From assembly GCA_964607655.1 (NCBI GenBank), contig CAZSKX010000001.1:232939-296938 (forward strand): 64,000 nucleotides of DNA, in the 5' to 3' direction. The notes beneath the pieces were generated by a model, which saw nothing but the letters and a program-made list of their open reading frames with translations, searched no databases and was not told the origin of the DNA. Both the position numbers and the translations under genes were made by a program. The DNA is from an uncultured Candidatus Saccharibacteria bacterium. Its GTDB lineage: Bacteria > Patescibacteriota > Minisyncoccia > Phycocordibacterales > Phycocordibacteraceae. Every line of letters starts with the position of its first letter. The first letter of the stretch is position 1. Of this stretch, positions 19,344 through 56,108 are shown one piece after another.

Positions 19344-19371
19344 AACACAATTTTATCATTTTTGAAGTATA

Positions 19372-19770: not shown

Positions 19771-19812
19771 ATCGGGCAATGGAAATAGCCTAGCATTATT
19801 TTATTTCCCTTT

Positions 19813-37828: not shown

Positions 37829-38140
37829 TTGCTGATGACGATGCGCCGTATGTTCGCGAAGCGAACGTTACTGCCAGTGTTATCGCATCAGCAATGAAAA
37901 GACGCCAGCTGACGTGTTCGCAAGAACGATACAGCTCGTGTCTTTCTAGCCCGGGTTGCGCTTGCGCACCCGGGCTTTTTGTTTTATGTTCGAGGCAGGT
38001 TGCAAGGGACGCTGCCTGTCTTGTATTCGATATTCGACGGATCACGATCTGTTCTCCGCAACCGCCTCTTGGTTGGCTCGACGATCTTTGGTTTGTTCTC
38101 ACCGAGAACGAAAGGAGGCATGTTCGACGCCAACCATTCA
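37829..38140. repeat. repeat module copy 4 (T1 hairpin at 37948-37988 and GGTTGGCTCGACG...CGACGCCAACC hairpin at 38060-38130)
   Basis: About 80% identical by eye to modules at 35686-35940 and 35031-35300. Confidence 0.65.
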
Positions 38141-38829
38141 AGAAGCTTCGTCGCGATGCAATTCTGATTATCCAGAAGGACGTAAGGAGGTGTGTCCCGA
38201 GCCAAGCAATGCCGCCTATCGAAGCTCGATAGGCGGCATTATTTTGTACCTCTCATACTTAGTCTAGCTCCTGTAAGTGCCTTGGCCACAACGCTCATCG
38301 ATACAAAAAATTTATTGGGGTGGGGATAACGCCAACGTGATCTGGACTCAAGCGTTAGCCGCGGGGCGTCATATATATAGTCGCCCGCGAGGCCTCGCGC
38401 GCCACATCTCCGGTCGGTAGGCGCATAAGCGCTACGACAATTAGGCACCACAATATATAAGTGATATTCAAGAAGTTCCCGTATCTCGGCAAGACGTGAA
38501 AGCCTTTATTTACTTAATAAATAATCTCGGCATCCCAAGATTCCCGGCCGAATGTCAGGATTTGCATGGGCTCTCCTCGTTCCTTGTGCTCACAGTCCTC
38601 TCGCCAGCAAGGCACTTGAGTCACTTTGCAGGGCTTTTATCCTTTCCCACATAAGTTTCTTAGGCTGATTCCCTACCGCCTGAATGTGCGGTGAAGGAGG
38701 CCATTTTTATGGCGATTTGGTGACTCATTTTAGGTCCAAAAGTCACTGCCTTTGGCAGACTAAAGTTATACTTACATACATGATAAGTCGCATGTCGTTA
38801 TGGCGACATATGGCTTGAAATAAGAGCAA

Positions 38830-41800
38830 ATGGACGACAACCAAATCCTCAACGACGCATCTGAATATCTCTCATCTCGCGACGTCGCGGAGCTCTACAG
38901 GGTTACCCACGATCACGTCTCTCGACTCTGCCGCCAAGGTCGTTTAGCCGCCACCCAGAGGGGCGGAATCTGGCTCATCGAGAAAGGGTCGGCCGCCAGA
39001 TTTTTTGATTCGAAGAGCAAGCCCGTAGTGATCGAGAGGATGATCTCCTCACGGGACGCGGCTTCTTTGTACAGAGTCACTCACGACCACATTGCTCGAC
39101 TATGTCGCCAAGGGAAACTGACTGGGACGCTTCGTGACGGGATGTGGCTAGTGGACACAGGGTCACTCGATGTTTTTTTCAAGCATAGGGCAAAGGTTGA
39201 ACAAGCACCTGCGTCAGCGACGACAAGCCCGAGTGAAAAGCTCGTCTATGTTGTCCAGAAGGAATTACCAGTCGCTCCCCCAACCACGTTGCCACAAACG
39301 TCAGTACCAGCATCGACACTCGTCGTACCGACACGAGTATCGCTGCTAAGAATCACCACTTCGTTTGCTGCGCTTCTACTTCTTTTCGTGCTGCTGCTCG
39401 GAGTGAACACAGCAGAGACAACACTCTCAAGGTCGTCATCGACTGCAGAGGCAGCTGCGCTCGGGTTTCTCCCTGAGCCCATCGCTACATGGGGTGTGAA
39501 TGTTATCGATGGTACGCGAGTTGCGATTACATCGTTTAAAAATTTCTTTACCTTCTACTCGAATCCATTTCCTACCATCGTCTTGGAAGCACCTCAGATT
39601 TTCTACCATCTTGCTGATCGGGTGCCCTCCTCAGCAACCACCACTCGATCGGTAAGTAATAGCTACGCGACCTACAACACCTTTATCGAAGGAGTTTCTA
39701 AAAGCTATTTAGATCAAGTGCTCGTTCAACTACGCACCGAGGTGTACCGCAATATTGATTCGACCATTCGCCCATACCTCGAGCGCCCCGCTCGATCTTC
39801 AGGCAGTACTTCCCTTTCTCTCACCACTTCGGGCACGAGCGGGGCAGCAACGCTGAGCGGCAACGTGCTCAATATTCCGCAATACACCGGTGGTGGCTCG
39901 GGCACTATCGGCAGTGGTACTGTCGGGCAGATCCCGTACTACAGCGGGGCCACCGCTCTCACAGCCACCTCTTCACTCTTCATCGATACGACAGGATACC
40001 TCGGCCTCGGCACTACCTCACCTGGCACGATCCTCTCGATCGGCGATGGTGCAGACGCAATCAATTTCTCAAACACCGCAACGAGCACATTCAGCTACGG
40101 GATCAACATCAAGGGCGGATGTTTCGCGGTGGACGGTGTTTGTTTTTCTGATGGTCCTGGCCTCTCCTCAGTCTCTGCCACCTATCCGATCACTGGCAAC
40201 GGAACTATTGGCTCGCCGCTTGTACTTGCTTTTGGTACCTCGACCGCAAACACGTGGGGCGACACCCAGACCTTCACGAACAATCCCATCCTCGGTTCAC
40301 TCTCCGGTCTCATCTACGGCAACAGCGGTACGCTCGCAAGTACGGCCACCTCAACCCTCTCCTTCAGCAGCTTCCCAGCACGCCTCACCGGCACCCTCGG
40401 CTCACTCGTGGGTGGCACGAACTCTTCGTTCACCTGGTGGGGTCTCGCTACGACAACGAACATCGTCTCGGGCAATCTCCTGTACGGCAGTGGTGCTAAT
40501 GGTGTAGCGAATGTGGCGACGTCCACCCCAACCGCCGGCACCGGCATCTCACTTGCAGGCACCGGCAGTGTCGTTGGCGGCAGCCTCTCGATCACCAACA
40601 CCGGCGTCACGAGCGTCGCCGCCACGTATCCACTCATCACGAGCGCTGCAACCGGCAACATCACCCTCTCTACGGCCCTTGCCACCACGACGATCCGCCA
40701 AGAGTTTGGCACGGCACAGCTCGGCAACATCTCCTTCGCCACTTCTTCTGACGCAAACCTCAGACTCAACATCACTAACAGCGGTGGCGCCTTCACCTTC
40801 GCTCCGGTATGGAATGGCGTCCTCTCGATCCTTCGTGGGGGTACTGCAAGCACAACACCGCTCGGTGGCATCTTGGTTGGCAACGGTACGAACCCAATCA
40901 AGTCACTCGTGGTCGGCACCGGCCTCACCTTCGACGGTACGACGCTCGCCTCGACAGCAAGTGGCGGTACGGTGACGCAGGTTGATACCTCAAGCTCAGT
41001 CACCGGCCTCACCCTCACCGGTGGCCCCATCACCACGACGGGCACCGTCACTCTTGGGCTCACGGCCGGCTACACGATTCCGCTCAGTGCCTCAACCACT
41101 GAATGGGACACGGCATACTTGAATCGCATCACCTCAGCGAGCGCACCACTGTCGTTTGCAAACAATACCCTCTCGATCACCCAGGCGGGCGCCGCTACGA
41201 ATGGGTATCTCTCCTCAACTGACTGGAATACGTTTAACAACAAAGCCGGCTTCGCCTGGCCGTTCACCGTGCAGACTGGTTACGTCTCAACCTCCACTAC
41301 GGTTGGCTTCTTGCAAGGTCTCTTCTCGACCGCTTCATCAACTTTCTCGGGCCCCCTCCGCTTCTCCTCGCTCACGCCCGGCGGTCTCGCGGTTGGCACG
41401 GGCGGTCTCGTATACAGCGCTGCCACCACCACTGCGGGTACTGGCCTTACATACAGCGGCAATGCCTTCAACGTCAACACAACGCAGGACATTTCTCGAC
41501 TTTCGAACCTTACGTCAAACGGCGTGGTCTACACATCAGCCGGCAACGGAACGTTGAATGTTGGTGCGACCTCGACACTCTCCTTCAGCAGCTTCCCAGC
41601 CCGCCTCACCGGCACCCTCGGCTCACTCGTCGGCGGCACCAACTCTTCGTTCACCTGGTGGGGACTCGCTACGACCACCAACATCGTTCCCGGCAATCTC
41701 CTGTATGGATCAGGTGCAAATGGTGTGGCGAATGTGGCGACTTCGACGCCATCCCTCGGCCTCGGCCTCAGCTACGTTGGCGGCACCCTCGGTTCGTTTG

Positions 41801-44800
41801 TCGGTGGCTCAAGCGGCACCTTCTCGATCGCCACCTCCTCTCTGTACAGCGGCTCAACAGGGCAGTTTCCATACTTCAGCGACACAAATACGATCACCGC
41901 AACCTCATCGATCTTCCTTGCGACCAACGGCCGCATCGGCATCGGTACTACCACGCCGGGTACAATCCTCTCGATCGGCAACGGTACAACGGCCATCAAC
42001 TTCAGCAACACGGCGACTTCAACCTTTAGCTATGGTCTGAATATCCGAAATGGATGTTATGCAATCGGCGGCTCTTGCCTCTCGGCGGCGACATTTGGCC
42101 TCACTAACTACTGGACCCTCTCGGGAGGAAACATCTTCAACAACAATGCAGGAAAGGTCGGCGTCGGGACCTCGACTCCGTGGGGCCAGCTCTCAGCTTC
42201 TTCGACTTCTGCATACCCAACGCTCGCGATACAACAACTCGGAGCAGGACCCGCAGCGACATTCTTAGGAGGAAATGTGGGCATCGGCACCACCTCGCCG
42301 TATAAGACACTTTCTGTAGGAGGAAACGTGGGCATAAACGGTGATGTGCAGATCTATGGGAATACGCTGTACGAGCCGAGCGGCATGCTCTCTAGTGGTG
42401 CGTGGTTTGGCGATGGATCGGGATACTATGTGCAGGTTGCCGGGTTCCAAGACACACTGACTGCTAACGCAAATATTCTATTTCCTGCCGGTATCAGTGC
42501 AGCTAATGATACGTTTGTTCTAGAGAATCTAGCTCAAACCCTCACCAACAAAACGCTCACCTCACCCGTCCTCACGACACCAACCCTCAGCGGCGGCACC
42601 CAAGGCAGCGTCCTCTTCCTGGGCACGAGTGGGACCATCACCCAGAACAACAGCAGTTTCTTCTGGCACAACACGCGCACTACACTCGGACTTGGTACAA
42701 CGACGCCACGGTATAAACTCACCATCGCCACCTCAACCGCCCCCCAACTCTCCCTCGCGGCAGGCACCGGTATCGCCCAGTGGACCTTCCGCAACGCTGG
42801 CGGCAACCTCTACGTCGCTAGCACTAGCGCTGCCGGCACTGCCACCTCAAGCATCGCTGCGCTCTCGATCACGGGATCAAATGCATACGTCGGTATTGGC
42901 GTGAATGCCCCCACCCAGAAGCTCGATGTCGCTGGCAACGTGAACGTCACCGCCACCTCTGGGTACTATCAGGGCGGCTCTCGCGTACTCTTCGCTCCCG
43001 CCAGCTATGAAGCCACCTATGTCGGCATCGGCGCAGGCAATGCAAACCCGACGGGCGGAGCTAACTCAGCGCTCGGGTATCAGTCGCTGTACAACACCAC
43101 CACCGGTATCCAAAACACCGCCCTTGGCCACTCCGCCCTCTATACCAACTTCAACGGAGGTCGCAACACGGCGGTGGGCTGGTATGCCGGGTACTCAAAC
43201 CAAAGCGGAACCGACAACGTCGCGATCGGCAACGCGGCACTCGAGAACGCCAGCAGCTCATACAACACCGCACTCGGCAGCTTTGCCTTAAACGCCGTTA
43301 CGACGGGAGAGTACAACATCGGGATCGGGTACCAGGCAGGCAACACGAACCCCATCACCGGCAGCAACAACATCCTCATCGGCAACAACGTCGACCTTCC
43401 AAACGCAAACAGCTCAAACATGCTCTCGATCGGCAATCTGATCTACGGCACGGGGCTCTCCACGAGTGCGGGTACGGGTGTCTCGACGGGGAATATTGGT
43501 ATTGGGACGACGAGCCCACAGTACAAGCTGTCGGTATTAAATAGTACCGCGCCTCAGCTCGCACTTGCTTCAGGGGCGGGAGTGGCGCAGTGGACCTTCC
43601 GCAACGCAGGCAGCAACCTCTACCTCGCTACCACTACGGCGAACGGCTCGGCCACCACGACACTCCCTGCCTTTACGATCCTTGGATCAACAGGAAGAGT
43701 GGGTATTGCGACCAGCTCTCCCGGATCACTCTTCTCAATCGCCAACGTCGCCAACTTCAAGACCGGGACCTCGACCATATATGAGAATCTTAACGTTCGC
43801 GGACAACTCAAGATCGGTACGGGTTCTATCTATCTCAATGGGGCGGCGACGAGCACCTTCTCTAACGGCATTTCCCTTGCTGCCGGCAACATCATCAGCT
43901 CCCCCGGCGCCTTCAGTATTAACTCAGGCGCCGCCTCTGCGCTCAACATTGACTCAGGCACCACGGGAGCGCTTAATCTCGGTACCAGCGCTAATGCGAA
44001 GACGATCACTATCGGCAACTCAACCGGTGCCACCGCTGTGAACATCACCACTGGTACCGGGAATTTTGCGCTTAACACGAATCAGCTATTCGTTAATCAG
44101 TCTACGGGATATGTCGGCATCGGCACAACATCTCCCAGCGAGACTCTTACCGTGAACGGCAATCTTCTTTTCGTTAAGGAATCGGCCCGCACCATCTCTG
44201 TGGGCGATTCAACGACTTCAAACACAGCAGGGGCGGCGCTATCCATCCTGGGTGCAGCTGCAACATCCGGTGCAGCGAATGGTGGGGCAATTAGCATTAC
44301 AGGCGGCGCGTCGACAGGCACGAGCGGTAATGGTGGCGCCGTTACCATTACAGGAGGGGCGGGCAAAACAGGCACCTTTTCTACCGGCGGGGCGATTTCG
44401 CTTACTTCAGGAGGAACTTCGTGGTACTCAGGGGCGATCACGATAGCAACGGCGGGTTCGGCGGAGTCAGGCGACCTTACGCTAAGCACGGGGTCTGCTG
44501 GTTTCGCAGCATCGGCGGGTGACATATCGCTGACCGCTGGAAGCCATTCGTCAACTGGATCAGCGGGCAACATTCTGCTTACTGCAGGCAGCAACTCAAG
44601 CTCTGGCGCCGCAGGTTCGATCACCATCAACGCTGGCAACTCGACTTCAGGAACTGTCGGGAACGTGCTCTTGAACAGTGGTGGCGTAGGCAAAGTGGGC
44701 ATCGGTCTAGCATCACCAGCAACGATGCTCGATATCGATACGGGCAGTAACACTACCGGCCTGCGGATTCGGGGCTTGGCTGAGACGGTCGAGATCGCTG

Positions 44801-46713
44801 ACATTTCTGTTGGGTCGGCCGGTCAGCTGATACTGTCAACGGCAAACACAGGAGATTCTGGCGCATTTATTGAGGTAGACGCTGAGGACGACTTGTATGG
44901 TCTCATCATACGCGATTCGAATACGGGCAGCACACAGTTCGCAAACGTGTATATGGCCGACGCAGCAACCGACTACCTGAATATCGTAGTGAACAACACT
45001 GCCGCCACAGCCGGACTCGTCGTCAGCGACGACGACTATGTTGGCATCGGTGACACGACTCCGGCTGCTAGGTTATCGATTGTAAACAATGTCGCCACCA
45101 ACTTCCTGGACACCTACGCCGAGTATCAGGTCTTGCTGTATGACAGTGGCGTAGCAGCAACTTCGTATGGCCTCGGTATCAAAAACAACACCATGGTCTT
45201 CAATAGTGGCGTTGGCGGGTATAGCTTCGACGACGCTGGAGGATCGAGCAGTATGGTTATCGACTCTTCGGGCAATGTAGGTATCGGCACCGCATCACCG
45301 TACAATAAATTTGATATTGTGGCCGACACGTCGGGCGTGGCCAATGCGCAGGCCAGCGCAGGCCTTCGCATCGACGCCAACACATCCTTAAATGACACGG
45401 CTTTCCTTGCTGGCGTCGACAGCACGAACAACCTCGCATACATACAAGCAGTAGAACCTCTCGTTTCTTGGACAACTAGACCACTTATTCTGCAGCCCAA
45501 TGGCGGTTCTATCGGTATCGGGGACACCACCCCCTCCTATACCCTCGATGTGAACGGCACATTGCGCACAACGAGCAACCTGACCGTCGACGGCACTACG
45601 ATGACACTGACCAGCTCCGGTTTTGTGGGCATCAATAACATTAACTCCAATTCCACTATTGTTGTTTTTGCTGCTGATGCTAATAATGATGGCAGCACTG
45701 AACAATTCCAATTTCGAATTAACGACACAGTGGCGGGTGGCGCTCGTCTGGCGCAGATTGATACCGTCGGCATCTATACTGACAATATGCCAGCTCCCGG
45801 CAACTCTACTGTCTGTAGAGACGCCTCTGGAGAATCCTACTTCGGTTCGTGTACGTCGCTGTTGAAGTACAAGGAGAACATCCGTGATCTGCCACTTGGG
45901 CTGGATACCGTGCTCGCGCTAAAGCCGCACCTGTTTGACTGGCGATACAATATGGGCTCACCTGACGACCTTGGGTTCATTGCTGAAGAAGTCGAGGCGA
46001 TTAGCCCTATACTCACGGAGTATAACGATAACGGCGAGCTGACCGGCGTGAAATATGCGAGCATGGCAGCACTCTTTGCGCGGGCGATACAGCAGCTTGA
46101 TGCACGAGAGCGCCTCTTTGCGAGCTCGACCACTATCCGCCTTGACTCGCTCGAGAGCCGCCTCGCAATGCTCGAGAACGGGCTCATCTCCACCACATCG
46201 TCGGGTATCGTCTCGAGTCTGGGAGAATCAGCCCTCACACAACTCATTACTTGGTTTGGAAACGCCTCAAATGGGATCCAAGACCTGTACGCTACCGCCT
46301 TCCACGCGGAGGAGGTGCACACGCGCACGCTCTGCGTTAAGAGGTCTGACGATACTGACATCTGTGTCACGGGCGACGAGCTCGCGGCACTCCTCGCTGC
46401 TCAGAATATCTCCCCTGTCCAGGCTCCTTCAGACGAGATCATCATTACAGATACTCCGTCGGGAGCAGTAACACCACCTGACACGAGCACTACTACGCCC
46501 GCGGTGAGCGACCCTCTCGTTCCCCCAACCGATACAGACGAAACTACGGTTGAAACCGCTCCGACGCCTTCCCCAGACACTACCGGCGAGAATGTCGCCG
46601 AGAGTGCCACGGACACCTCGAGCACACCAGACCCAGCACCAGACGCTCCGGCCGATGCGGTAGTAGAACCTGCCTCAACGGCTAGCGCCCCTGTAGAGAC
46701 GGCTACGCTGTAG
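38830..46713 (+). CDS. giant 2627-aa protein: two tandem excisionase-type HTH domains, one TM helix, a huge Gly/Thr/Ser-rich repetitive fibre, and a C-terminal phage-tail-spike-like intramolecular chaperone (peptidase S74-like) domain
   Basis: HTH copies at aa ~15-60 and ~70-115 (LSSRDVAELYRVTHDHVSRLCRQGRLAATQRGGIWLIEKGSAARFF; ISSRDAASLYRVTHDHIARLCRQGKLTGTLRDGMWLVDTGSLDVFF). TM helix VSLLRITTSFAALLLLFVLLLGV. Internal near-identical repeats. C-terminal LKYKENIRDLPLGLDTVLALKPHLFDWRYN...LGFIAEEVEAISPILTEY...GVKYASMAALFARAIQQL matches the S74 auto-cleaving chaperone domain. The antisense ORFs in the track are artefacts. Confidence 0.8.
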   Translation: MDDNQILNDASEYLSSRDVAELYRVTHDHVSRLCRQGRLAATQRGGIWLIEKGSAARFFDSKSKPVVIERMISSRDAASLYRVTHDHIARLCRQGKLTGTLRDGMWLVDTGSLDVFFKHRAKVEQAPASATTSPSEKLVYVVQKELPVAPPTTLPQTSVPASTLVVPTRVSLLRITTSFAALLLLFVLLLGVNTAETTLSRSSSTAEAAALGFLPEPIATWGVNVIDGTRVAITSFKNFFTFYSNPFPTIVLEAPQIFYHLADRVPSSATTTRSVSNSYATYNTFIEGVSKSYLDQVLVQLRTEVYRNIDSTIRPYLERPARSSGSTSLSLTTSGTSGAATLSGNVLNIPQYTGGGSGTIGSGTVGQIPYYSGATALTATSSLFIDTTGYLGLGTTSPGTILSIGDGADAINFSNTATSTFSYGINIKGGCFAVDGVCFSDGPGLSSVSATYPITGNGTIGSPLVLAFGTSTANTWGDTQTFTNNPILGSLSGLIYGNSGTLASTATSTLSFSSFPARLTGTLGSLVGGTNSSFTWWGLATTTNIVSGNLLYGSGANGVANVATSTPTAGTGISLAGTGSVVGGSLSITNTGVTSVAATYPLITSAATGNITLSTALATTTIRQEFGTAQLGNISFATSSDANLRLNITNSGGAFTFAPVWNGVLSILRGGTASTTPLGGILVGNGTNPIKSLVVGTGLTFDGTTLASTASGGTVTQVDTSSSVTGLTLTGGPITTTGTVTLGLTAGYTIPLSASTTEWDTAYLNRITSASAPLSFANNTLSITQAGAATNGYLSSTDWNTFNNKAGFAWPFTVQTGYVSTSTTVGFLQGLFSTASSTFSGPLRFSSLTPGGLAVGTGGLVYSAATTTAGTGLTYSGNAFNVNTTQDISRLSNLTSNGVVYTSAGNGTLNVGATSTLSFSSFPARLTGTLGSLVGGTNSSFTWWGLATTTNIVPGNLLYGSGANGVANVATSTPSLGLGLSYVGGTLGSFVGGSSGTFSIATSSLYSGSTGQFPYFSDTNTITATSSIFLATNGRIGIGTTTPGTILSIGNGTTAINFSNTATSTFSYGLNIRNGCYAIGGSCLSAATFGLTNYWTLSGGNIFNNNAGKVGVGTSTPWGQLSASSTSAYPTLAIQQLGAGPAATFLGGNVGIGTTSPYKTLSVGGNVGINGDVQIYGNTLYEPSGMLSSGAWFGDGSGYYVQVAGFQDTLTANANILFPAGISAANDTFVLENLAQTLTNKTLTSPVLTTPTLSGGTQGSVLFLGTSGTITQNNSSFFWHNTRTTLGLGTTTPRYKLTIATSTAPQLSLAAGTGIAQWTFRNAGGNLYVASTSAAGTATSSIAALSITGSNAYVGIGVNAPTQKLDVAGNVNVTATSGYYQGGSRVLFAPASYEATYVGIGAGNANPTGGANSALGYQSLYNTTTGIQNTALGHSALYTNFNGGRNTAVGWYAGYSNQSGTDNVAIGNAALENASSSYNTALGSFALNAVTTGEYNIGIGYQAGNTNPITGSNNILIGNNVDLPNANSSNMLSIGNLIYGTGLSTSAGTGVSTGNIGIGTTSPQYKLSVLNSTAPQLALASGAGVAQWTFRNAGSNLYLATTTANGSATTTLPAFTILGSTGRVGIATSSPGSLFSIANVANFKTGTSTIYENLNVRGQLKIGTGSIYLNGAATSTFSNGISLAAGNIISSPGAFSINSGAASALNIDSGTTGALNLGTSANAKTITIGNSTGATAVNITTGTGNFALNTNQLFVNQSTGYVGIGTTSPSETLTVNGNLLFVKESARTISVGDSTTSNTAGAALSILGAAATSGAANGGAISITGGASTGTSGNGGAVTITGGAGKTGTFSTGGAISLTSGGTSWYSGAITIATAGSAESGDLTLSTGSAGFAASAGDISLTAGSHSSTGSAGNILLTAGSNSSSGAAGSITINAGNSTSGTVGNVLLNSGGVGKVGIGLASPATMLDIDTGSNTTGLRIRGLAETVEIADISVGSAGQLILSTANTGDSGAFIEVDAEDDLYGLIIRDSNTGSTQFANVYMADAATDYLNIVVNNTAATAGLVVSDDDYVGIGDTTPAARLSIVNNVATNFLDTYAEYQVLLYDSGVAATSYGLGIKNNTMVFNSGVGGYSFDDAGGSSSMVIDSSGNVGIGTASPYNKFDIVADTSGVANAQASAGLRIDANTSLNDTAFLAGVDSTNNLAYIQAVEPLVSWTTRPLILQPNGGSIGIGDTTPSYTLDVNGTLRTTSNLTVDGTTMTLTSSGFVGINNINSNSTIVVFAADANNDGSTEQFQFRINDTVAGGARLAQIDTVGIYTDNMPAPGNSTVCRDASGESYFGSCTSLLKYKENIRDLPLGLDTVLALKPHLFDWRYNMGSPDDLGFIAEEVEAISPILTEYNDNGELTGVKYASMAALFARAIQQLDARERLFASSTTIRLDSLESRLAMLENGLISTTSSGIVSSLGESALTQLITWFGNASNGIQDLYATAFHAEEVHTRTLCVKRSDDTDICVTGDELAALLAAQNISPVQAPSDEIIITDTPSGAVTPPDTSTTTPAVSDPLVPPTDTDETTVETAPTPSPDTTGENVAESATDTSSTPDPAPDAPADAVVEPASTASAPVETATL
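40357..40530. repeat. internal ~170-bp repeat within the giant gene (copy A; copy B at 41588-41761)
   Basis: Encodes TLSFSSFPARLTGTLGSLVGGTNSSFTWWGLATTTNIV(S/P)GNLLYGSGANGVANVATSTP twice. About 85-90% nucleotide identity by eye. Other degenerate repeat families are also present (PGTILSIG-G-AINFSNTATSTFSYG; TAPQL-LA-G-G-AQWTFRNAG-NLY). Confidence 0.8.
41588..41761. repeat. internal ~170-bp repeat within the giant gene (copy B)
   Basis: See copy A. Confidence 0.8.
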
Positions 46714-46805
46714 CCAGCCCCTTCGACAGGACGCCCGGAGCTGTCTTTTCCATATATTTGTGCTACTGTGCTGTTGGACCAACCTTAAAGCCTAGGAGGC
46801 ACCAC

Positions 46806-47174
46806 GTGGATATCACACTGCATTTCAATTTCCGCAATGTCGAGGAGTACTGGATGTACCTGGACCGCGTCATCGGCACCAAGCTCGTCCAGATCCAACA
46901 ACAGGGAGACGTCTGGAAGGATGATCCCGTCTACATCGCTGATAAGCAGAGACGCGAGGACTTCGTGACTCTGTGCTGGGTCGAGCTCGTCGCCGAGCTC
47001 GCGGCTGCCAGCCAGTTGATCAGGCTGATGGGCTACCCGGAGGCTGCCGACAAGGGTGAGGTACTACTCCGCATGGTGAAGATCGGCGATGTCCGCGAAC
47101 ACAAGGTTCGCGAGGCGATCAACACCTTCCATCACCAGTTCCACCCTGAACAAGGGAAGTATCTGGTGACCTAG
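46806..47174 (+). CDS. hypothetical protein (122 aa from an SD-supported GTG start)
   Basis: AGGAGG precedes the GTG at 46806. Followed by the terminator at 47191-47234. Confidence 0.4.
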   Translation: MDITLHFNFRNVEEYWMYLDRVIGTKLVQIQQQGDVWKDDPVYIADKQRREDFVTLCWVELVAELAAASQLIRLMGYPEAADKGEVLLRMVKIGDVREHKVREAINTFHHQFHPEQGKYLVT

Positions 47175-47190: not shown

Positions 47191-47234
47191 GAAAACCGCC
47201 CGACGGTTCTCGTCGGGCGGTTTCTTCTTTTTTA
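47191..47234. terminator. bidirectional rho-independent terminator
   Basis: The hairpin CCGCCCGACGG...CGTCGGGCGG is flanked by an A-run and TTTCTTCTTTTTTAT. Confidence 0.65.
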
Positions 47235-49362: not shown

Positions 49363-50376
49363 CTAGTCGGTATAATAGTTGCTAATACAGGTTTCCTGCA
49401 CGTTACTTTTCGGATCAGCCGTCCAATTGTTGAAGCCCCTTACCCCGCCGCCACTCTGTTGATATAGGCTATATGCGGCAGTGAAATTGCACTCCAGGTT
49501 TGATGCCGCGGTGACGCACGCTTGAAGAATGGCAGCATCTCCCCCCTCAAGAAATCCGTTTGGGCCGAAACCTTTATGACACCGCAGTGGGCCAGAAACT
49601 CCCGCTGCGTCATAGCATTTCTGGTTTTCATAGTGACTAGAGTTTGTAGAAAGCAACACTTGAAATGCTCCGTATGCGGACGAAGCCTTTCCCTTCCCAC
49701 AGTCCTTATTCCAACAATAATTCTGCAAGCGTGAGCCGCAAGTGCTTTCCGGTTGTGCGAGACAGGCGAAGACATTCGCTTCTGCGTCTGTGAGACCAGA
49801 AACAATACCTTTTAGAACGTTTGGGTCACATGCTCCCGTCCCTGAGGGGGGCGGGTAGTCAATGTCTGGGCCCGGTCTAACACCAGTTGTGCCAATGTTT
49901 AGATCTGCTTGATCCAAACTCGCCTTCAGCGGTATGCAGTCATGTGCGCCGGTCATTGTGATCAGGTTATACCAGTTTGCTGGGAAGCCTTGCTCTGGAT
50001 CAGGGTTGTATAGGACTGCCATAAGCGCGTTGACGATGAGCCATGCTGAGAGCGCAACGACTATGCCGACCACGGTCGAGAGCAGCATGCTCTTCGCTTT
50101 GGTACGAGCACCAGGGTTCCCTCCACTGGTGACGAGGAGAGCGCCTGCCCACGTGATCATGATGGGTGCGACTATAGCAATAGCCACCGTCACAGAGAAC
50201 TGAATGATGCGGTTGATGACTTCGACGGCGAAGCCCCAGCCCGCTGCGCAAAGAGGATCGTTTGCTGAGGGAGGGATGATGGGTCCCCAGAATGGGAGGG
50301 AGGCGTGGGTGACCAAAGGCGCAAAAAGGAGGACCGTGACTAGCGGTCCGGCAACCTTCAGAAAGCGAACACTCAT
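49363..50376 (-). CDS. Cys-rich membrane protein: N-terminal TM hairpin (VirB2/TrbC-pilin-like) plus a possible lytic-transglycosylase-like C-terminal domain
   Basis: Signal/TM followed by a second TM helix. The C-terminal AQPES...SSAYGAFQVL loosely fits the SLT E-S...GLMQ motif. About 16 Cys in the C-terminal half. Confidence 0.3.
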   Translation of the reverse strand: MSVRFLKVAGPLVTVLLFAPLVTHASLPFWGPIIPPSANDPLCAAGWGFAVEVINRIIQFSVTVAIAIVAPIMITWAGALLVTSGGNPGARTKAKSMLLSTVVGIVVALSAWLIVNALMAVLYNPDPEQGFPANWYNLITMTGAHDCIPLKASLDQADLNIGTTGVRPGPDIDYPPPSGTGACDPNVLKGIVSGLTDAEANVFACLAQPESTCGSRLQNYCWNKDCGKGKASSAYGAFQVLLSTNSSHYENQKCYDAAGVSGPLRCHKGFGPNGFLEGGDAAILQACVTAASNLECNFTAAYSLYQQSGGGVRGFNNWTADPKSNVQETCISNYYTD

Positions 50377-52663: not shown

Positions 52664-53032
52664 ATGGCACTGCTAAAAAACCGGCATACTGAACACCGGC
52701 CGTGGGGATCATTTGATCAATTCGCCTTAAATGAGGCGTCGACTGTGAAGGTCATAGCCGTTGAGCCTAATCAGCGTCTCTCTCTTCAGACACACACCAA
52801 ACGTGCTGAATTTTGGTACATCCTTCAGGGACAAGGAGAGGTCACGGTTGGCGAGACCGTGCATGCCGCTAAGGCCGGAGACGAGTTCGAGATTCCTGTG
52901 GGGACAGCGCACCGGGCTGCTAGCGGCGCTGAGGGATTAACGTTTCTTGAGGTATCGCTCGGAGAGTTTGATGAGCACGACGAGGTACGACTTGAAGACG
53001 CTTACGGCCGCACCTCGCCCACCAGCCAATAA
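52664..53032 (+). CDS. cupin-domain protein (mannose-6-phosphate isomerase type II C-terminal-like)
   Basis: HRPWGSFDQF...LSLQTHTKRAEFWYILQGQGEV...GDEFEIPVGTAHR cupin_2 pattern. Confidence 0.75.
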   Translation: MALLKNRHTEHRPWGSFDQFALNEASTVKVIAVEPNQRLSLQTHTKRAEFWYILQGQGEVTVGETVHAAKAGDEFEIPVGTAHRAASGAEGLTFLEVSLGEFDEHDEVRLEDAYGRTSPTSQ

Positions 53033-54192
53033 TGACCTACGACCCACTTGGTATTTGGGTGGGCATTCTTGTATTCACGACCATCTTTGTGCTGGGGTGC
53101 ATGTTCTTCGGCACCTTCTTTACGAAGAGGCGGTCGCTAAAAAAGACTGTTAAGGAAACGTCTCTTGCCCTTCAGCGATCTGAGAAAAATCCCCTCCTTA
53201 CACCAAACCAGAATCACTGGCAGGCCGAGGCGGTCTTTAACCCTGCAGCCACGGTTATCGACGGAAAGACCTACCTACTCTACCGGTCGGTAGGCGCCGA
53301 TGGCGTCTCGCGCCTAGGGTATGCCGTGTCAGACGACGGTGTCCACTTCAACGACCGCGTCCCGTATCCGGCCTACGTTTCTGGAGATCCGCGGCGCGCG
53401 CTTCGTCGTCCAAAGAAATACAGCCCCACGCTCTACCCTTCTGGCGGTAGCTGGGGAGGCTGTGAGGACCCGCGGATGGTCGAGATCGATGGAGATATCC
53501 ATGTCACGTTAAACATGTTCGATGGGTGGGACTTTATCCGCGTCGCCGCTCTGTCTATCCCTAAGGAAGACTTCCTCGCTAAACGCTTTGACGGATGGAG
53601 CACCCCGACACTCCTCTCTAAGCCTGGTGAGCGCCACAAAAACTGGGTGCTCTTCCCAGAGAAAGTTAATGGAAAATTTGCTATTTTACACAGCATTTCT
53701 CCGCGTATCGAGATCGAGTATCGTGACTCGGTAGAAGACATCGGCACGACCGAGCCGTTTATAGAGAGCTGGGAGGGGGCTCGCTCGGGCATCGCGGTAC
53801 GCGAGGGATACTGGGATAATTACGTCCGCAGCGCCGGCCCCCCGCCTCTGCGCACCGACGCGGGTTGGCTGCTCTTTTACCACGCACACAACAAGGAGGA
53901 GACCAATCGCTACAAGCTCGGCGCAATGCTCCTCGACCTTGAAGATCCAACAAAGGTTCTCTATAGGTCGGCACAGCCTATCCTCGAACCAAACTGCCGC
54001 TACGAGAACGACGGCAAGCCTGGGGTCGTGTACGCCTGCGGCTCCACCGTTAAAGATGGCATACTCCACGTCTACTATGGCGGAGCCGACAAGGTGATCT
54101 GCGTTGCTACAGCTCCTCTCACCGCTTTTCTTACCGCGCTCACGAAGAATGAGCACGCTATACTAGAGGAACAACCATCATCCAGCCGTTAA
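53032..54192 (+). CDS. membrane-anchored GH130-family glycoside hydrolase/phosphorylase (beta-mannoside phosphorylase-like)
   Basis: N-terminal TM helix. FNPAATVIDGKTYLLYRSVG, GCEDPRMV and YKLGAMLLDLEDP motifs, typical of GH130/DUF377. Confidence 0.75.
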   Translation: MTYDPLGIWVGILVFTTIFVLGCMFFGTFFTKRRSLKKTVKETSLALQRSEKNPLLTPNQNHWQAEAVFNPAATVIDGKTYLLYRSVGADGVSRLGYAVSDDGVHFNDRVPYPAYVSGDPRRALRRPKKYSPTLYPSGGSWGGCEDPRMVEIDGDIHVTLNMFDGWDFIRVAALSIPKEDFLAKRFDGWSTPTLLSKPGERHKNWVLFPEKVNGKFAILHSISPRIEIEYRDSVEDIGTTEPFIESWEGARSGIAVREGYWDNYVRSAGPPPLRTDAGWLLFYHAHNKEETNRYKLGAMLLDLEDPTKVLYRSAQPILEPNCRYENDGKPGVVYACGSTVKDGILHVYYGGADKVICVATAPLTAFLTALTKNEHAILEEQPSSSR

Positions 54193-54194
54193 CC

Positions 54195-56108
54195 ATGTTT
54201 ACCGTCCGACGTGAAGAAGAAAACCCCGTGCTCTCACCCAAGGCCGATCATCCTTGGGAAATGCAGGCGACCTTCAACCCCTCAGCCGTGCAGACTGACG
54301 AGGGCGTCCGTATCTTTTATCGAGCTATCGGTGCGCCGGACATACTCGTCTCGCCCAATCTCGGTCTCTCTTCAGTCGGCACCGCCGTCTCAGAAGACGG
54401 AATCCACTTTACCGATCGGACACAGGTGATCGCTCCTAAGGAATCTTGGGACGCATACGGCTGTGAAGACCCTCGCGTCACCTTCTTCGAAGGGCGGTGG
54501 TACTGCTTCTACACTGCGCTCGGAGGCTACCCGTTTGGCCCCGAGAATATTAAAGTCGCGGTAGCTATCGGCGACTCTCCCACTGCCTTCACCGAGCGTC
54601 ATCTCATCACCCCTTTTAACGCGAAGGCGGCGACACTATTTCCAGAGCGAATCAACGGCGAGGTCGTCCTCCTCTTGACCGCTCATACTGACTGGACACC
54701 GGACCACCCTCGCCCCACGATCGCGATCGCGCGCGCTAAGAATGTGAGCGATTTCTTTGATCCTGCGTACTGGGAACAGTGGCATCACGACCTTCCAGCA
54801 CACGCGCTAGGAGAACTCCGTCGACTCGATGATGACCATATCGAAGTGGGCGCAACACCCCTGAAGACACCTCACGGCTGGCTCCTGGTCTACTCATATA
54901 TCCAAAATTATTACGATGAACACCATCGCCTTTTTGGTATCGAAGCCGCATTTCTCGATGCAGAGGACCCTCGCCGCGTTATCTCGCGCACCTACCCCTG
55001 TATGGTGCCCGAGACCGTCTATGAGATCTACGGCATGATCCCGAAGATCATCTTCCCCACAGGGGCAACCCTCAAAAACGACACGCTCAGCATCTGGTAT
55101 GGCGGCGCCGACACCGTCTGTGCACGAGCTGATATACGCTGGTCGGATATTCTACGCGCTCTCGATCCTTCTGGGCCGGCACGGACGTTTATCCGCGCTG
55201 CAGAGAATCCCATCCTGACCCCCCGAGGCGACGGCTTTGAAAGCCAAGCCGTCTTTAACGCCGCCGCCATTGATATCGAGGGGACCATATATATCCTCTA
55301 CCGTGCGATGGATGCATATAACACCTCGACCTTTGGTCTCGCGCTCTCTAAGGACGGGATCCACATCGACGAGCGCCTGGATGCGCCCGTATATGTGCCC
55401 CGTGCCGAGTTTGAGCAGAAGCGCAGTTCGCCCACTGGTAATTCGGGCTGTGAGGACCCTCGTCTCTCCCGCATCGGCGACCGACTCTACGTCGCCTACA
55501 CTGCGTACGACGGCATGCACGCACCGCGAGGCGCCGTAAGCTCAATCAGTATCGAGGACTTCCTCGCGCGACGGTTTGACGCATGGAGCGAGCCCGTCCT
55601 GATAACCCCAGATGCTGTGGACGATAAGGACATCGGCCTCTTGAGTGAGCCGGTACACGACGGCTATGTGCTGTATCACCGCGTCTCGGGCCAGATCTGC
55701 GCCGACGTTATCCCTGACCTCGCCTTCGCGAAGCGGGTTTCGCGCTGCATCGAAATCATGGGCCCCCGAGAAGGCATGTGGGACGGCGCTAAGATCGGCA
55801 TCGCTGGCCCACCGATCAAGATCCCGGGTGGCTGGCTCCTCATCTACCACGGCGTCTCCTCGCGCGCGCACTATCGTCTCGGCGCGGCACTCCTCGACGA
55901 AACGGGCCTCGTCGTAAAGGCCCGCACGGCAGACGAGATTTTTCAGGCAGTTGAGGGCTACGAGCGTGAAGGCATCGTCCCGAACGTGGTATTCTCCTGT
56001 GGCGCTGTCGTGCGCGATGACACAGTCTTCCTCTACTACGGTGGCGCTGACCGCGTGCTTGGAGTCGCCACCGCTTCACTCTCGCACATCATCAAAGCGC
56101 TCTCATGA
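54195..56108 (+). CDS. tandem double GH130-domain protein
   Basis: Two successive GH130-like units (FNPSAVQTDEGVRIFYRAIG...GCEDPRVT and FNAAAIDIEGTIYILYRAMD...GCEDPRLS). 637 aa. Confidence 0.75.
   Translation: MFTVRREEENPVLSPKADHPWEMQATFNPSAVQTDEGVRIFYRAIGAPDILVSPNLGLSSVGTAVSEDGIHFTDRTQVIAPKESWDAYGCEDPRVTFFEGRWYCFYTALGGYPFGPENIKVAVAIGDSPTAFTERHLITPFNAKAATLFPERINGEVVLLLTAHTDWTPDHPRPTIAIARAKNVSDFFDPAYWEQWHHDLPAHALGELRRLDDDHIEVGATPLKTPHGWLLVYSYIQNYYDEHHRLFGIEAAFLDAEDPRRVISRTYPCMVPETVYEIYGMIPKIIFPTGATLKNDTLSIWYGGADTVCARADIRWSDILRALDPSGPARTFIRAAENPILTPRGDGFESQAVFNAAAIDIEGTIYILYRAMDAYNTSTFGLALSKDGIHIDERLDAPVYVPRAEFEQKRSSPTGNSGCEDPRLSRIGDRLYVAYTAYDGMHAPRGAVSSISIEDFLARRFDAWSEPVLITPDAVDDKDIGLLSEPVHDGYVLYHRVSGQICADVIPDLAFAKRVSRCIEIMGPREGMWDGAKIGIAGPPIKIPGGWLLIYHGVSSRAHYRLGAALLDETGLVVKARTADEIFQAVEGYEREGIVPNVVFSCGAVVRDDTVFLYYGGADRVLGVATASLSHIIKALS

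What the first reader, a model, noticed from the sequence alone, without database searches (positions are those of the whole stretch)
38830..46713. Giant 2627-aa ORF fusing tandem cytoplasmic excisionase-type HTH domains, a single TM helix, a repetitive fibre and a phage-tail-spike self-cleaving chaperone domain
Seen directly in the sequence:
- Two tandem ~45-aa repeats at the N-terminus match the excisionase/MerR-type HTH pattern (…SSRD-A-LYRVTHDH-RLCRQG-L…G-WL-…F).
- One strongly hydrophobic span (aa ~185-207).
- About 2100 aa of Gly/Thr/Ser/Ala-rich sequence with long internal duplications.
- About 300 aa from the C-terminus, a block (LKYKENIRDL…LALKPHLFDWRY…GFIAEEVE…GVKYASMAALFARAIQQL) that matches the peptidase S74 intramolecular-chaperone domain of phage endosialidase and tail fibres.

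I am not aware of a described system that couples a membrane-tethered tandem DNA-binding module to a giant, auto-processing surface fibre. Possible roles are a fibre-gated membrane-bound transcription regulator, a DNA-anchoring or DNA-uptake surface appendage, or host attachment in an episymbiont. It sits directly downstream of a hairpin-repeat/IS110 region, which may influence its expression.
Basis: partly seen in the sequence, partly recalled or inferred. Interest (0 to 1): 0.85.

Follow-up and report, generated by a model that had tools for sequence, protein, structure and literature searches.

The report
Membrane-anchored giant fibre with cytoplasmic HTH
A 2627-residue protein of a tiny CPR (Kaiserbacteria-like) bacterium joins two cytoplasmic DNA-binding-type domains, one membrane helix and a phage-tail-fibre-like, probably self-cleaving surface fibre; this design recurs in many CPR genomes and I found no paper describing it.

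Summary
Window 38830-46713 (+) is one uninterrupted 2627-aa ORF. It has two tandem HTH_17 domains (aa 9-62 and 67-120), one hydrophobic helix (aa 170-192, not 185-207), about 2100 aa of repeat-rich T/G/S/A/N shaft, and a Peptidase_S74 chaperone domain.

The S74 Ser-Lys dyad is intact (Ser2343/Lys2348), 285 aa from the C-terminus.

It is not an assembly artefact or a one-off. In a search of 1.84 billion representative proteins:
- 361 proteins share the N-terminal module.
- 108 of the best 150 have a hydrophobic helix within 200 aa after the HTH.
- 42 are 900-7214 aa long.
- About 19 also carry S74 domains near the C-terminus.

All named or located relatives come from Patescibacteria. None was found in viral contigs.

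Best reading: a trimeric cell-surface fibre held in the membrane by an N-terminal signal anchor and matured by C-terminal autocleavage. Its N-terminus is a CPR-wide HTH-TM module. The recognition helix of that module is nearly invariant, which points to one shared cytoplasmic ligand, probably DNA.

The HTH function is untested. A MYRF-like release of the HTH is excluded by the domain order. I found no literature on this architecture. I rate it a new variant of known kinds, of moderately high interest.

The parts
38830..46713 (+). Complete 2627-aa ORF (ATG start to stop codon)
   Evidence: An identical protein (P0042) is held in the public collection, from an NCBI contig of 464,554 bp.
38854..39015 (+). 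Winged HTH domain 1 (aa 9-62), excisionase/MerR-like HTH_17
   Evidence: Pfam HTH_17 at aa 13-52. The AF2 model shows beta-alpha-alpha-beta-beta-alpha with pLDDT about 88. Foldseek matches BldC, RacA, Xis and TraN.
39028..39189 (+). Winged HTH domain 2 (aa 67-120)
   Evidence: Second HTH_17 stretch. A local HMM places it at aa 67-120. It is 59% identical to domain 1.
39190..39336 (+). Pro/Thr/Ser/Ala-rich cytoplasmic linker (aa 121-169)
   Evidence: Seen in the sequence. Low pLDDT from residue 122 onwards.
39337..39405 (+). Single transmembrane signal-anchor helix (aa 170-192)
   Evidence: The only hydropathy peak above 1.6 in the protein. Across the family K+R averages 2.7 on the N side against 1.1 on the C side, with N>C in 79 of 108 proteins. 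This predicts an N-in topology.
39427..39816 (+). Conserved juxtamembrane extracytoplasmic region (aa ~200-329)
   Evidence: Aligns over aa 200-320 with P0043, P0045 and P0064, and with internal regions of P0087, P0102, P0103, P0138, P0167 and P0187.
39817..45855 (+). Repeat-rich fibre shaft (aa 330-2342). It includes the SLTTSGTSGAATLSGNVLNIPQY motif (aa 330-352), recurrent GIGTTxP motifs, an N-T-A-x-G repeat block (from about aa 1429) and Cys pairs 431/438, 1076/1083 and 2329/2341.
   Evidence: Composition and motif positions. Internal repeats. Shaft modules are shared in mosaic fashion with other CPR giant genes. The motif recurs in tail-fibre-like proteins. There is no Pfam, PHROG or PDB sequence match.
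45856..45873 (+). Predicted autocleavage centre: Ser2343 (nt 45856-45858) and Lys2348 (nt 45871-45873). The predicted scissile bond is Thr2342|Ser2343.
   Evidence: Ser and Lys are invariant in 18 family S74 domains. They align with the MYRF ICA dyad position, and the Ser aligns with residue 1 of the released GA-1 chaperone chain 3gud. The dyad and the cleavage on the N-terminal side of the Ser are documented in PMC8326128.
45856..46179 (+). Peptidase_S74 / intramolecular chaperone autocleavage domain (aa 2343-~2450)
   Evidence: Pfam match of 30.1 bits against a cut-off of 22. The family profile hits solved tail-fibre and ICA structures: 8jov 1e-14, 6f45 1e-13, MYRF 7dc3 8e-12, T5 8hqz 5e-7, 3gud 1e-4.
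46246..46398 (+). Conserved post-S74 motif (aa 2473-2523): W-F/L-x-[ND]-A-x-NGI...L-[YF]-A...LC[VI]...C[VL]T..[DE][LF]..LL, with Cys2502 and Cys2512
   Evidence: Alignment of C-terminal tails of family members. Function unknown.
46399..46710 (+). Low-complexity Pro/Thr/Ala/Asp/Glu tail (aa 2524-2627)
   Evidence: Comparable acidic or Pro-rich tails, or DUF5011/Ig-like domains, occupy this position in relatives.
38208..38240 (+). Strong terminator-like hairpin that closes the upstream unit. About 590 bp follow without a credible ORF or Rfam match before the start codon.
46758..47174 (+). Small downstream ORF (at most 138 aa), possibly co-transcribed. No family match, and not conserved next to homologues.
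47193..47223 (+). Terminator-like hairpin (14-bp stem plus a T run) that ends the probable transcription unit

Best explanation
The gene encodes a cell-surface fibre of a Kaiserbacteria-like CPR bacterium, probably an adhesin or host-contact appendage.

Proposed mechanism:
1. The protein inserts into the cytoplasmic membrane as a type II (N-in) protein through the single helix at aa 170-192.
2. The roughly 2430 residues beyond the helix are exported.
3. The C-terminal S74 intramolecular chaperone trimerises and nucleates folding of the shaft from the C-terminal end, as in phage tail fibres and endosialidase.
4. The chaperone then cuts itself off between Thr2342 and Ser2343, using the Ser2343/Lys2348 dyad.
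5. This leaves a mature trimeric fibre of aa 1-2342 anchored by three N-terminal helices.

On the cytoplasmic face each fibre would display six excisionase/MerR-type winged HTH domains. This HTH(x1-2)-linker-TM unit is a generic, CPR-restricted N-terminal module shared by many surface proteins. Its exposed recognition-helix residues are nearly invariant. It most likely binds one common ligand, probably DNA, so that it tethers these envelope proteins to the nucleoid or to a common site rather than acting as a gene-specific regulator.

Shown here: the domain identities, catalytic residues, topology bias, recurrence and taxonomic restriction. Inferred: trimerisation, cleavage, the adhesin role and DNA binding.
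For: - Domains: HTH_17 x2 and Peptidase_S74 score above the Pfam cut-offs.
- HTH fold: the AF2 model of aa 1-135 shows two beta-alpha-alpha-beta-beta-alpha domains with pLDDT about 88. They match BldC-DNA (rmsd 1.4 A over 49 aa), RacA-DNA, Pukovnik Xis and MtaN. As a tandem they match the dsDNA-binding TraN of pIP501 (E 6.5e-4). TraN inserts its two recognition helices into adjacent major grooves (PMC6158623).
- S74: Ser and Lys are invariant across 18 family domains. The family profile hits solved ICA and tail-fibre structures, and the Ser aligns with residue 1 of the released GA-1 chaperone chain. Dyad chemistry is described in PMC8326128.
- Topology: there is a single hydropathy peak, and the family shows a positive-inside bias, N>C in 79 of 108 proteins and N<C in 7. 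Paired cysteines occur only beyond the TM helix.
- Recurrence: 361 hits. Among the best 150, 108 have HTH followed by TM, 42 are at least 900 aa, and 19 representatives have S74 near the C-terminus.
- Independent MAG loci: 17 loci carry HTH-led ORFs, up to 3477 aa or more.
- Paralogues: arrays of 2-3 HTH-led genes lie side by side in L002 and L003.
- Shared ligand: the recognition helix D-Y-[ILV]-x-R-L-C-R-x-G-K is the most conserved stretch in 168 domains, and the wing Trp is invariant.
- Cellular, not viral: the neighbours are housekeeping genes (ParB, RelA/SpoT, MiaA, peroxiredoxin, tRNAs). There are no PHROG structural hits and no relatives in 2.9 million viral contigs.
- Taxonomy.
Against: - No experiment or structure shows trimerisation, cleavage, surface exposure or DNA binding for any member.
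- The AF2 model of the C-terminal 244 aa was unusable (pLDDT 45).
- The shaft has no match in Pfam, PHROGs or PDB, so its fibre fold is inferred from composition, repeats and the presence of S74.
- The relative orientation of the two HTH domains is not modelled (pTM 0.39, linker pLDDT below 50), so a TraN-like compact DNA-binding unit is unproven.
- A conserved recognition helix could equally mean a conserved protein or RNA partner.
- The 285-aa released fragment is larger than a minimal chaperone and carries a conserved Cys motif of unknown role, so cleavage may have a further purpose or may not occur.
- No conserved neighbouring gene gives functional context.
Confidence: 0.6

Rival explanations
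1. Contact-sensing, membrane-bound, one-component transcription factor (ToxR/CadC-like logic). The fibre is the sensor. Host contact or fibre assembly changes the clustering of the cytoplasmic HTH domains and so changes transcription, for example of its own gene or of attachment genes.
For: - The HTH fold is that of bona fide DNA-binding regulators (BldC, MerR/MtaN, TraN).
- TraN is a repressor that uses tandem wHTH domains.
- Trimerisation outside the cell would bring six HTH domains together inside it.
- An unusually long (~590 bp) non-coding leader precedes the gene.
- In ultra-small cells the nucleoid lies close to the membrane (general knowledge).
Against: - The recognition helix is nearly invariant across hundreds of proteins with unrelated ectodomains, and across several paralogues in one genome. 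That is atypical for regulators with distinct targets.
- No repeated operator-like motif was identified upstream. This was not searched systematically.
- Many family members have very short ectodomains.
Confidence: 0.2
2. The HTH domains do not bind DNA. They are cytoplasmic docking or export-control domains. They might resemble RodZ, whose HTH binds MreB, or serve as a leader that paces Sec-dependent export of very long passengers, as the ESPR of giant autotransporters does.
For: - The module heads many different exported proteins, often giant ones, like a sorting or anchor leader.
- The invariant surface is compatible with one conserved protein partner.
- RodZ shows the same HTH-TM-ectodomain layout (general knowledge).
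Against: - The conserved exposed residues are basic (two Arg and one Lys in and just after the recognition helix, plus a G-R-x-W wing), as in DNA-binding members of the fold.
- No candidate partner gene is conserved nearby.
- Tail-anchored-like short members, such as the 258-aa protein in L003, have almost nothing to export.
Confidence: 0.15
3. MYRF-type self-cleaving membrane transcription factor: S74 autocleavage releases the DNA-binding domain from the membrane.
For: - The same three ingredients are present: a DNA-binding domain, an S74/ICA domain and a TM helix.
- The family S74 profile hits the MYRF ICA structure 7dc3 at E 8e-12.
- MYRF biology is described in PMC3742443 and PMC8326128.
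Against: - The domain order is HTH-TM-shaft-S74.
- The S74 domain lies about 2150 residues beyond the TM helix, on the opposite side of the membrane.
- Cleavage at Ser2343 therefore frees only the C-terminal 285 aa and never the HTH.
Confidence: 0.02
4. Artefact or phage gene: either a chimeric ORF created by misassembly or a frameshift in the repeats, or a prophage tail-fibre gene.
For: Repeats within the ORF and an IS110-like gene about 1.2 kb upstream could promote rearrangement. S74 is best known from phages.
Against: - The repeats are only 72-86% identical at the DNA level, too diverged to collapse in assembly.
- The same HTH-TM-shaft-S74 order is found in 19 representative proteins (50%-identity clusters, many assemblies) and in the complete ORF of MAG locus L007.
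- There are no phage genes nearby, no PHROG structural hits and no viral-contig relatives.
Confidence: 0.03

Closest known systems
Phage tail fibres and tailspikes with a C-terminal intramolecular chaperone (endosialidase endoNF, T5 L-shaped fibre pb1, GA-1 neck appendage, S16 long tail fibre)
   Same: A C-terminal Peptidase_S74 domain with the Ser-x4-Lys dyad follows a long, repeat-rich, presumably trimeric shaft. Profile matches to the solved structures range from E 1e-14 to 1e-4.
   Different: The gene is chromosomal and cellular, not part of a virion module. The N-terminus is a cytoplasmic HTH pair plus a membrane anchor instead of a virion-attachment domain. The released fragment (285 aa) carries an extra conserved Cys motif and an acidic tail.
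MYRF (myelin regulatory factor), a eukaryotic membrane-bound transcription factor with an ICA/S74 domain
   Same: It is the only described protein class I know that combines a DNA-binding domain, a TM helix and an S74 self-cleaving trimerisation domain (PMC3742443, PMC8326128). The S74 domains are homologous.
   Different: MYRF has the order DBD-S74-TM, with S74 on the cytoplasmic side, so cleavage frees the DBD. Here the order is HTH-TM-shaft-S74, and cleavage cannot free the HTH. The DNA-binding folds are unrelated (Ndt80-like versus wHTH).
TraN of Enterococcus plasmid pIP501 (and AM32 of pAMbeta1)
   Same: Two excisionase/MerR-like winged HTH domains sit in tandem in one chain. It is the best Foldseek match (E 6.5e-4) and a weak profile match (E 2e-3). 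TraN binds dsDNA with both recognition helices (PMC6158623).
   Different: TraN is a small soluble cytosolic repressor with a compact internal-dimer interface. Here the domains are joined by a flexible linker of unmodelled geometry and are tethered to the membrane and to a giant ectodomain.
BldC and RacA (MerR-like wHTH proteins without effector domains)
   Same: The single-domain fold is the same (rmsd 1.4-3 A). BldC multimerises head to tail on direct repeats, and RacA tethers chromosomal DNA to the cell pole (general knowledge). Both are precedents for multivalent or anchoring DNA binding.
   Different: Both are soluble. Neither has a TM helix or an ectodomain.
RodZ, ToxR and CadC-type bitopic HTH proteins
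   Same: They share the layout of an N-terminal cytoplasmic HTH, a single TM helix and an extracytoplasmic domain.
   Different: The HTH classes differ (XRE or OmpR-type wHTH). Their ectodomains are small sensor or scaffold domains, not multi-thousand-residue fibres with S74.
Trimeric autotransporter adhesins and other giant bacterial surface adhesins
   Same: They are very long, repeat-rich, probably trimeric surface fibres. JGI labels two relatives 'trimeric autotransporter adhesin' and 'fibronectin-binding autotransporter adhesin'. An N-T-A-x-G repeat block recalls head repeats (sequence).
   Different: There is no signal peptide, no C-terminal beta-barrel anchor and no Pfam TAA domains. 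Anchoring is by an N-terminal TM helix.

Membership tests
Peptidase_S74 / intramolecular chaperone autocleavage (ICA, CIMCD) domain | Profile match above the curated threshold | tested here: met
   PF13884 scores 30.1 bits against a cut-off of 22. The family profile hits 8jov, 6f45, 7dc3, 8hqz and 3gud.
Peptidase_S74 / intramolecular chaperone autocleavage (ICA, CIMCD) domain | Catalytic Ser-Lys dyad, with the Lys five residues after the Ser | tested here: met
   Ser2343 and Lys2348. Both are invariant in 18 family domains. They align with the MYRF S587(A)/K592 position and with the first residue of the released 3gud chain.
Peptidase_S74 / intramolecular chaperone autocleavage (ICA, CIMCD) domain | Trimerisation-dependent autocleavage that releases the C-terminal domain | not testable with these tools
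   This needs protein expression with S2343A and K2348A controls, or proteomics. The monomer AF2 model was of low confidence.
HTH_17 / excisionase-MerR-like winged helix | Profile match above threshold and a beta-alpha-alpha-beta-beta-alpha fold | tested here: met
   PF12728 scores 48.7 bits against a cut-off of 27, with two stretches. AF2 secondary structure and Foldseek matches to BldC, Xis, RacA and MtaN.
HTH_17 / excisionase-MerR-like winged helix | DNA binding | not testable with these tools
   Basic residues are conserved in the recognition helix and wing, which is suggestive only.
Excisionase (recombination directionality factor) | A small soluble protein encoded next to its cognate integrase in a mobile element | tested here: not met
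   The domain is part of a 2627-aa membrane protein. No integrase is adjacent; the nearest recombinase lies about 20 kb away in a separate island. TIGR01764 scores below its cut-off (19.3 against 28.8).
MYRF-type self-releasing membrane transcription factor | [quoted passage not shown] | tested here: not met
   The order is HTH (9-120), TM (170-192), shaft, S74 (2343-2450).
TraN-like internal-dimer dsDNA-binding protein | Two wHTH domains in one chain, packed through their wings into a compact unit | tested here: inconclusive
   The tandem domains are present and TraN is the top Foldseek hit. The inter-domain geometry is not modelled (pTM 0.39, rmsd about 14.7 A).
Trimeric autotransporter adhesin | N-terminal signal peptide and C-terminal YadA-type beta-barrel anchor | tested here: not met
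   No TAA Pfam domains. The N-terminus is a folded HTH, and the C-terminus is S74 plus an acidic tail.
Phage virion tail fibre or tailspike | Encoded in a phage structural module, with an N-terminal virion-attachment domain | tested here: not met
   The neighbours are housekeeping genes. PHROGs hits fall only on the HTH. No relatives in IMG/VR.
CPR HTH-TM-led surface protein family (defined here) | N-terminal HTH_17 (one or two copies) with the D-Y-I-x-R-L-C-R-x-G-K helix, then a linker and a single TM helix within about 200 aa, then a variable ectodomain | tested here: met
   The query scores E 5.6e-51 against the family profile A1.

The most novel reading that the evidence does not exclude
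CPR (Paceibacteria-type) bacteria have a lineage-specific way of wiring their surface to their chromosome. A conserved cytoplasmic tandem wHTH-TM module would physically couple trimeric, S74-matured host-contact fibres and many other envelope proteins to DNA. This coupling would act either as a trans-envelope nucleoid tether or as an assembly- or contact-dependent membrane-bound DNA-binding switch. It would be a bacterial counterpart of, and a topological inversion of, the MYRF design.
Probability: 0.3. Interest if true: 0.85.

Novelty: new variant of a known kind. Interest (0 to 1): 0.62.

Why it matters
CPR/Patescibacteria make up a large share of bacterial diversity. They are thought to live attached to other cells, and almost nothing is known about the molecules that mediate that contact.

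This family gives concrete candidates: giant, probably trimeric, self-processing fibres encoded in arrays and built from shuffled modules.

It also shows that the phage S74 chaperone has been recruited by cellular genomes for their own surface structures. That goes beyond the phage and MYRF cases discussed in the literature I could read (PMC8326128).

The conserved cytoplasmic HTH-TM leader is the most intriguing part. If it binds DNA, it would be a new kind of envelope-nucleoid coupling in ultra-small cells. If it binds a protein, it would mark an unknown sorting or anchoring system. Either way it is a compact domain of about 55 aa that can be expressed and tested directly.

Tried and rejected
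- The word-index homologue search with aa 1-367 mostly returned proteins that share only the short SLTTSGTSGAATL..NIPQY motif. A second search with the HTH alignment returned only 19 short proteins.
- The genome-contig scan with the single sequence found nothing. The broad alignment A1 was too variable to seed patterns. The 4-sequence alignment A2 worked.
- Exact look-ups of the window's proteins on encoding contigs found no record.
- Single-sequence PDB searches of the N- and C-termini and of the 2004-aa shaft gave nothing meaningful. Only profiles worked.
- PHROGs and NCBIfam gave no fibre annotation.
- The AF2 model of the C-terminal 244 aa from an 8-sequence alignment had mean pLDDT 45, so I did not use it for fold search.
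- The small downstream ORF and the other neighbours are not conserved beside homologues, so no operon partner can be proposed.
- No Rfam element lies in the 4.2 kb upstream.
- Five literature searches for the architecture in CPR found nothing relevant. The papers on the novel CPR pilus and on giant genes concern other proteins.
- I rejected the MYRF-like release, prophage tail fibre, misassembly, TAA membership and excisionase function. The reasons are given under the rival explanations and membership tests.
Full report
**1. Observation**

Window 38830-46713 (+) is a single ATG-initiated ORF of 2627 codons with no internal stop.

- HTH: Pfam HTH_17 matches twice in the first 197 aa (48.7 bits against a cut-off of 27). 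The two copies (aa 9-62 and 67-120) are 59% identical.
- TM helix: there is exactly one strong hydrophobic segment, aa 170-192 (VSLLRITTSFAALLLLFVLLLGV).
- Shaft: aa 210-2300 is 52% Gly/Thr/Ser/Ala. It contains diverged internal duplications: DNA copies are 72-86% identical and protein copies 43-83% identical.
- S74: Pfam Peptidase_S74 matches aa 2347-2393 (30.1 bits against a cut-off of 22).

All elements of the observation are therefore real and pass curated thresholds.

**2. Organism and context**

- Neighbouring genes are housekeeping: topoisomerase I, RelA/SpoT, ParB, tRNA-Leu, peroxiredoxin, MiaA, tRNA-Trp, two GH130 phosphorylases and ClpB.
- A PF18895 T4SS-pilin protein also lies nearby.
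- The identical giant protein, and four more of eight neighbouring proteins looked up, are on record from one NCBI contig of 464,554 bp.
- Named relatives of the window's topoisomerase I (75-79% identity) are all Candidatus Paceibacterota, Kaiserbacteria, Parcubacteria or Minisyncoccota.

The window thus comes from a Kaiserbacteria-like member of the CPR/Patescibacteria. The gene is chromosomal, not prophage-borne.

A strong terminator (38208-38240) and about 590 bp without an ORF or Rfam match precede the gene. The next strong terminator on the + strand is at 47193-47223, after a small unconserved ORF.

**3. The fusion is a recurrent family**

I ran an exhaustive phmmer search of aa 1-330 against 1.84 billion representative proteins. 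It found 361 proteins at E<=1e-3.

Among the best 150:
- 86 carry two tandem HTH domains and 60 carry one.
- 108 have a hydrophobic helix within 200 residues after the last HTH. Most exceptions are short fragments.
- Lengths run from 71 to 7214 aa.
- 42 are at least 900 aa, and all of these contain 49-60% G/T/S/A/N.

A local iterative search found an S74 domain near the C-terminus in 19 of these representatives, plus the complete 3206-aa ORF of locus L007. Several carry two S74 domains in tandem.

A pattern scan of one genome per GTDB species returned 17 loci, all in Patescibacteria MAGs (Kaiserbacteria, Adlerbacteria, Paceibacterota, 'Saccharibacteria'). Their HTH-led ORFs reach 3477 aa or more. 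Source names of other members agree with this taxonomy. The names show how they are annotated today: 'tail fiber domain-containing protein', 'helix-turn-helix domain-containing protein', 'immunoglobulin-like domain-containing protein' and 'DUF5011 domain-containing protein'.

In two long contigs, two or three HTH-led genes lie side by side. Shaft segments are shared in mosaic fashion between loci. The same patterns found no relative in 2.9 million viral contigs.

Misassembly, frameshift chimera and prophage tail fibre are therefore rejected.

**4. The C-terminal domain**

I aligned 18 family S74 domains. Six columns are invariant, among them Ser (Ser2343 in the query) and Lys five residues later (Lys2348).

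The profile of this alignment hits solved structures:
- a phage tail fibre (8jov, 1e-14)
- the S16 long tail fibre (6f45, 1e-13)
- the MYRF ICA domain (7dc3, 8e-12)
- the T5 L-shaped fibre (8hqz, 5e-7)
- the released chaperone of the GA-1 neck appendage (3gud, 1e-4), whose chain begins exactly at the aligned Ser

In MYRF and endoNF this Ser-Lys pair is the catalytic dyad. Cleavage occurs on the N-terminal side of the Ser and only in the trimer (PMC8326128).

The prediction is therefore cleavage between Thr2342 and Ser2343, releasing a 285-aa fragment.

That fragment is larger than the S74 core. It contains a family-conserved motif (aa 2473-2523, with two Cys) and a Pro/Thr/Ala/Asp/Glu tail. 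Relatives carry DUF5011/Ig-like domains at this position. A Cys one to three residues before the nucleophilic Ser is also conserved in most family members.

An AF2 monomer model of this region was too poor to use (pLDDT 45).

**5. The N-terminal module**

AF2 with a 14-sequence alignment gives two beta-alpha-alpha-beta-beta-alpha domains with pLDDT about 88. They are joined by a low-confidence linker.

Foldseek against the PDB returns:
- for the tandem: the dsDNA-binding TraN of pIP501 (E 6.5e-4)
- for single domains: BldC-DNA (rmsd 1.4 A over 49 aa), RacA-DNA, Pukovnik Xis and MtaN

TraN places its two recognition helices in adjacent major grooves and acts as a repressor (PMC6158623).

Across 168 family HTH domains the recognition helix and the turn after it (D-Y-[ILV]-x-R-L-C-R-x-G-K) are the most conserved stretch. 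The counts are Asp 159/168, Tyr 142, Arg 108, Leu 156, Arg 160, Gly 146 and Lys 122. The wing Trp is invariant.

This matters for interpretation. Regulators with different targets diversify this helix. Here the ectodomains differ completely and several paralogues coexist in one genome, yet the helix stays the same. I infer a shared ligand. The basic character of the conserved surface and the fold relatives make DNA the most likely one.

Topology:
- The family shows a clear positive-inside bias. K+R averages 2.7 on the N side against 1.1 on the C side of the helix, with N>C in 79 of 108 proteins and N<C in 7.
- There is no N-terminal signal peptide.
- Paired cysteines occur only beyond the helix.

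Together these place the HTH domains in the cytoplasm and the shaft outside.

**6. Mechanism proposed**

The steps below are inferred from the anatomy and from what is established for S74 proteins.

1. Co-translational insertion as a type II membrane protein.
2. Export of about 2430 residues.
3. Trimerisation and C-to-N folding nucleated by the S74 chaperone.
4. Autocleavage at Thr2342|Ser2343.
5. A mature trimeric fibre anchored by three N-terminal helices, with six wHTH domains clustered at the inner face of the membrane.

The outer part most plausibly serves attachment to a host cell or substrate. This fits the episymbiotic lifestyle attributed to CPR bacteria and the mosaic, array-like evolution typical of receptor-binding proteins.

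The inner part is a CPR-wide anchor module that probably binds DNA. Whether it tethers the nucleoid, regulates genes on assembly or contact, or docks to a protein remains open.

I put about 0.8 on the fibre/anchor/S74 part. I put about 0.35-0.4 on DNA tethering as the role of the HTH. My overall confidence in the combined statement is 0.6.

**7. Comparison with known systems**

- The C-terminal half works like a phage tail fibre with an intramolecular chaperone, and the S74 domain is a bona fide member of that family.
- The protein is not a virion protein, not a TAA (no signal peptide, no barrel anchor) and not an excisionase.
- It shares its ingredient list with eukaryotic MYRF but inverts the logic. 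S74 lies on the far side of the membrane from the DNA-binding domain, so a MYRF-like release is excluded.
- The N-terminal pair resembles TraN in arrangement, and BldC and RacA in fold.
- The bitopic layout recalls RodZ, ToxR and CadC.
- I found no paper in the held library that describes HTH_17-TM-fibre-S74 proteins or S74-bearing cellular fibres in CPR. The absence of a paper in this library is not proof that none exists.

**8. Verdict**

The finding is real and well characterised at the domain level. It is generalised here from a single ORF to a large CPR-restricted family. The individual parts are known kinds, while the combination and the conserved HTH-TM leader are undescribed.

- Novelty: new variant of a known kind.
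- Interest: 0.62.
- Most novel reading not excluded: a lineage-specific coupling of surface fibres to the chromosome or to gene control, with probability about 0.3 and interest 0.85 if true.

Noticed in passing
window 7690-20619: A low-GC island (41-45% against about 56% elsewhere) lies next to tRNA-Gln (19543-19614). It carries a large serine recombinase (17242-18573), a ParB-N/N6_N4 methylase, a 1071-aa type ISP-like methylase/specificity protein and two C5 cytosine methylases. It is probably an integrated mobile element that carries restriction-modification genes.
   Followed up: partly
window 11281-11408 (-): An Rfam LOOT RNA match (68.5 bits against a gathering score of 46.4) sits inside the low-GC island, just downstream of the type ISP-like gene.
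   Followed up: no
window 34785-38240: About 3.4 kb after tRNA-Leu contains almost no credible ORF apart from an IS110-like gene (36312-37661; Transposase_20 scores 26.8 bits, DEDD_Tnp_IS110 is below its cut-off). A ~140-nt element with a perfect terminator-like hairpin (AGCCCGGGTYGCGCTTGCGCACCCGGGCTTTTT) occurs three times: at 35147, 35797 and 37940. The last two copies are 91-96% identical and flank the IS110-like gene. Further repeats with ~650-bp spacing occur. These might be the ends of the element, or a non-coding RNA linked to the IS110-type recombinase.
   Followed up: partly
window 38241-38829: An unusually long (~590 bp) non-coding leader for a compact CPR genome lies between a strong terminator and the giant gene's start codon. 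It has no Rfam match and only one weak promoter-like site (38496-38525).
   Followed up: partly
window 49363-50376 (-): A 337-aa protein with a PF18895 T4SS_pilin domain (E 1.3e-9) lies about 2.6 kb downstream of the giant gene. It may be another surface-appendage component.
   Followed up: no
window 53032-56860: Two adjacent GH130 genes (relatives are named beta-1,2-mannobiose/oligomannan phosphorylase) are followed by a phosphomannomutase-like HAD protein. Together they look like a mannoside salvage module in a reduced genome.
   Followed up: no
L002 1-25664; L003 8806-28199: Related CPR contigs carry arrays of two or three consecutive giant HTH-TM-led, S74-bearing genes. In L003 a bAvd/23S_rRNA_IVP gene (an accessory protein of diversity-generating retroelements) follows the array. 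This hints at targeted hypervariation of such fibres.
   Followed up: partly
family members P0060, P0061, P0138, P0169 (C-terminal regions): Several relatives carry two S74 domains in tandem. The second is a distinct subtype (TSTRxAKxDI...YRY...LRLGxIAED...KGVDLYKLATF). This implies two successive autocleavage sites, or one degenerate chaperone.
   Followed up: partly
window 45814-45858 (aa 2329-2343): A Cys pair (2329 and 2341) lies just before the predicted cleavage site. A Cys one to three residues before the nucleophilic Ser (two in the query) is conserved in most family S74 domains, so the mature fibre would end in ...Cys-Thr. Each HTH recognition helix also carries a conserved Cys (Cys34 and Cys92; Cys in 101 of 168 domains).
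   Followed up: no
window 39817-39885 (aa 330-352): The motif SLTTSGTSGAATLSGNVLNIPQY recurs, often many times per protein, in otherwise unrelated tail-fibre-like metagenomic proteins (for example 7 copies in P0001). It looks like a mobile fibre module or junction motif.
   Followed up: no
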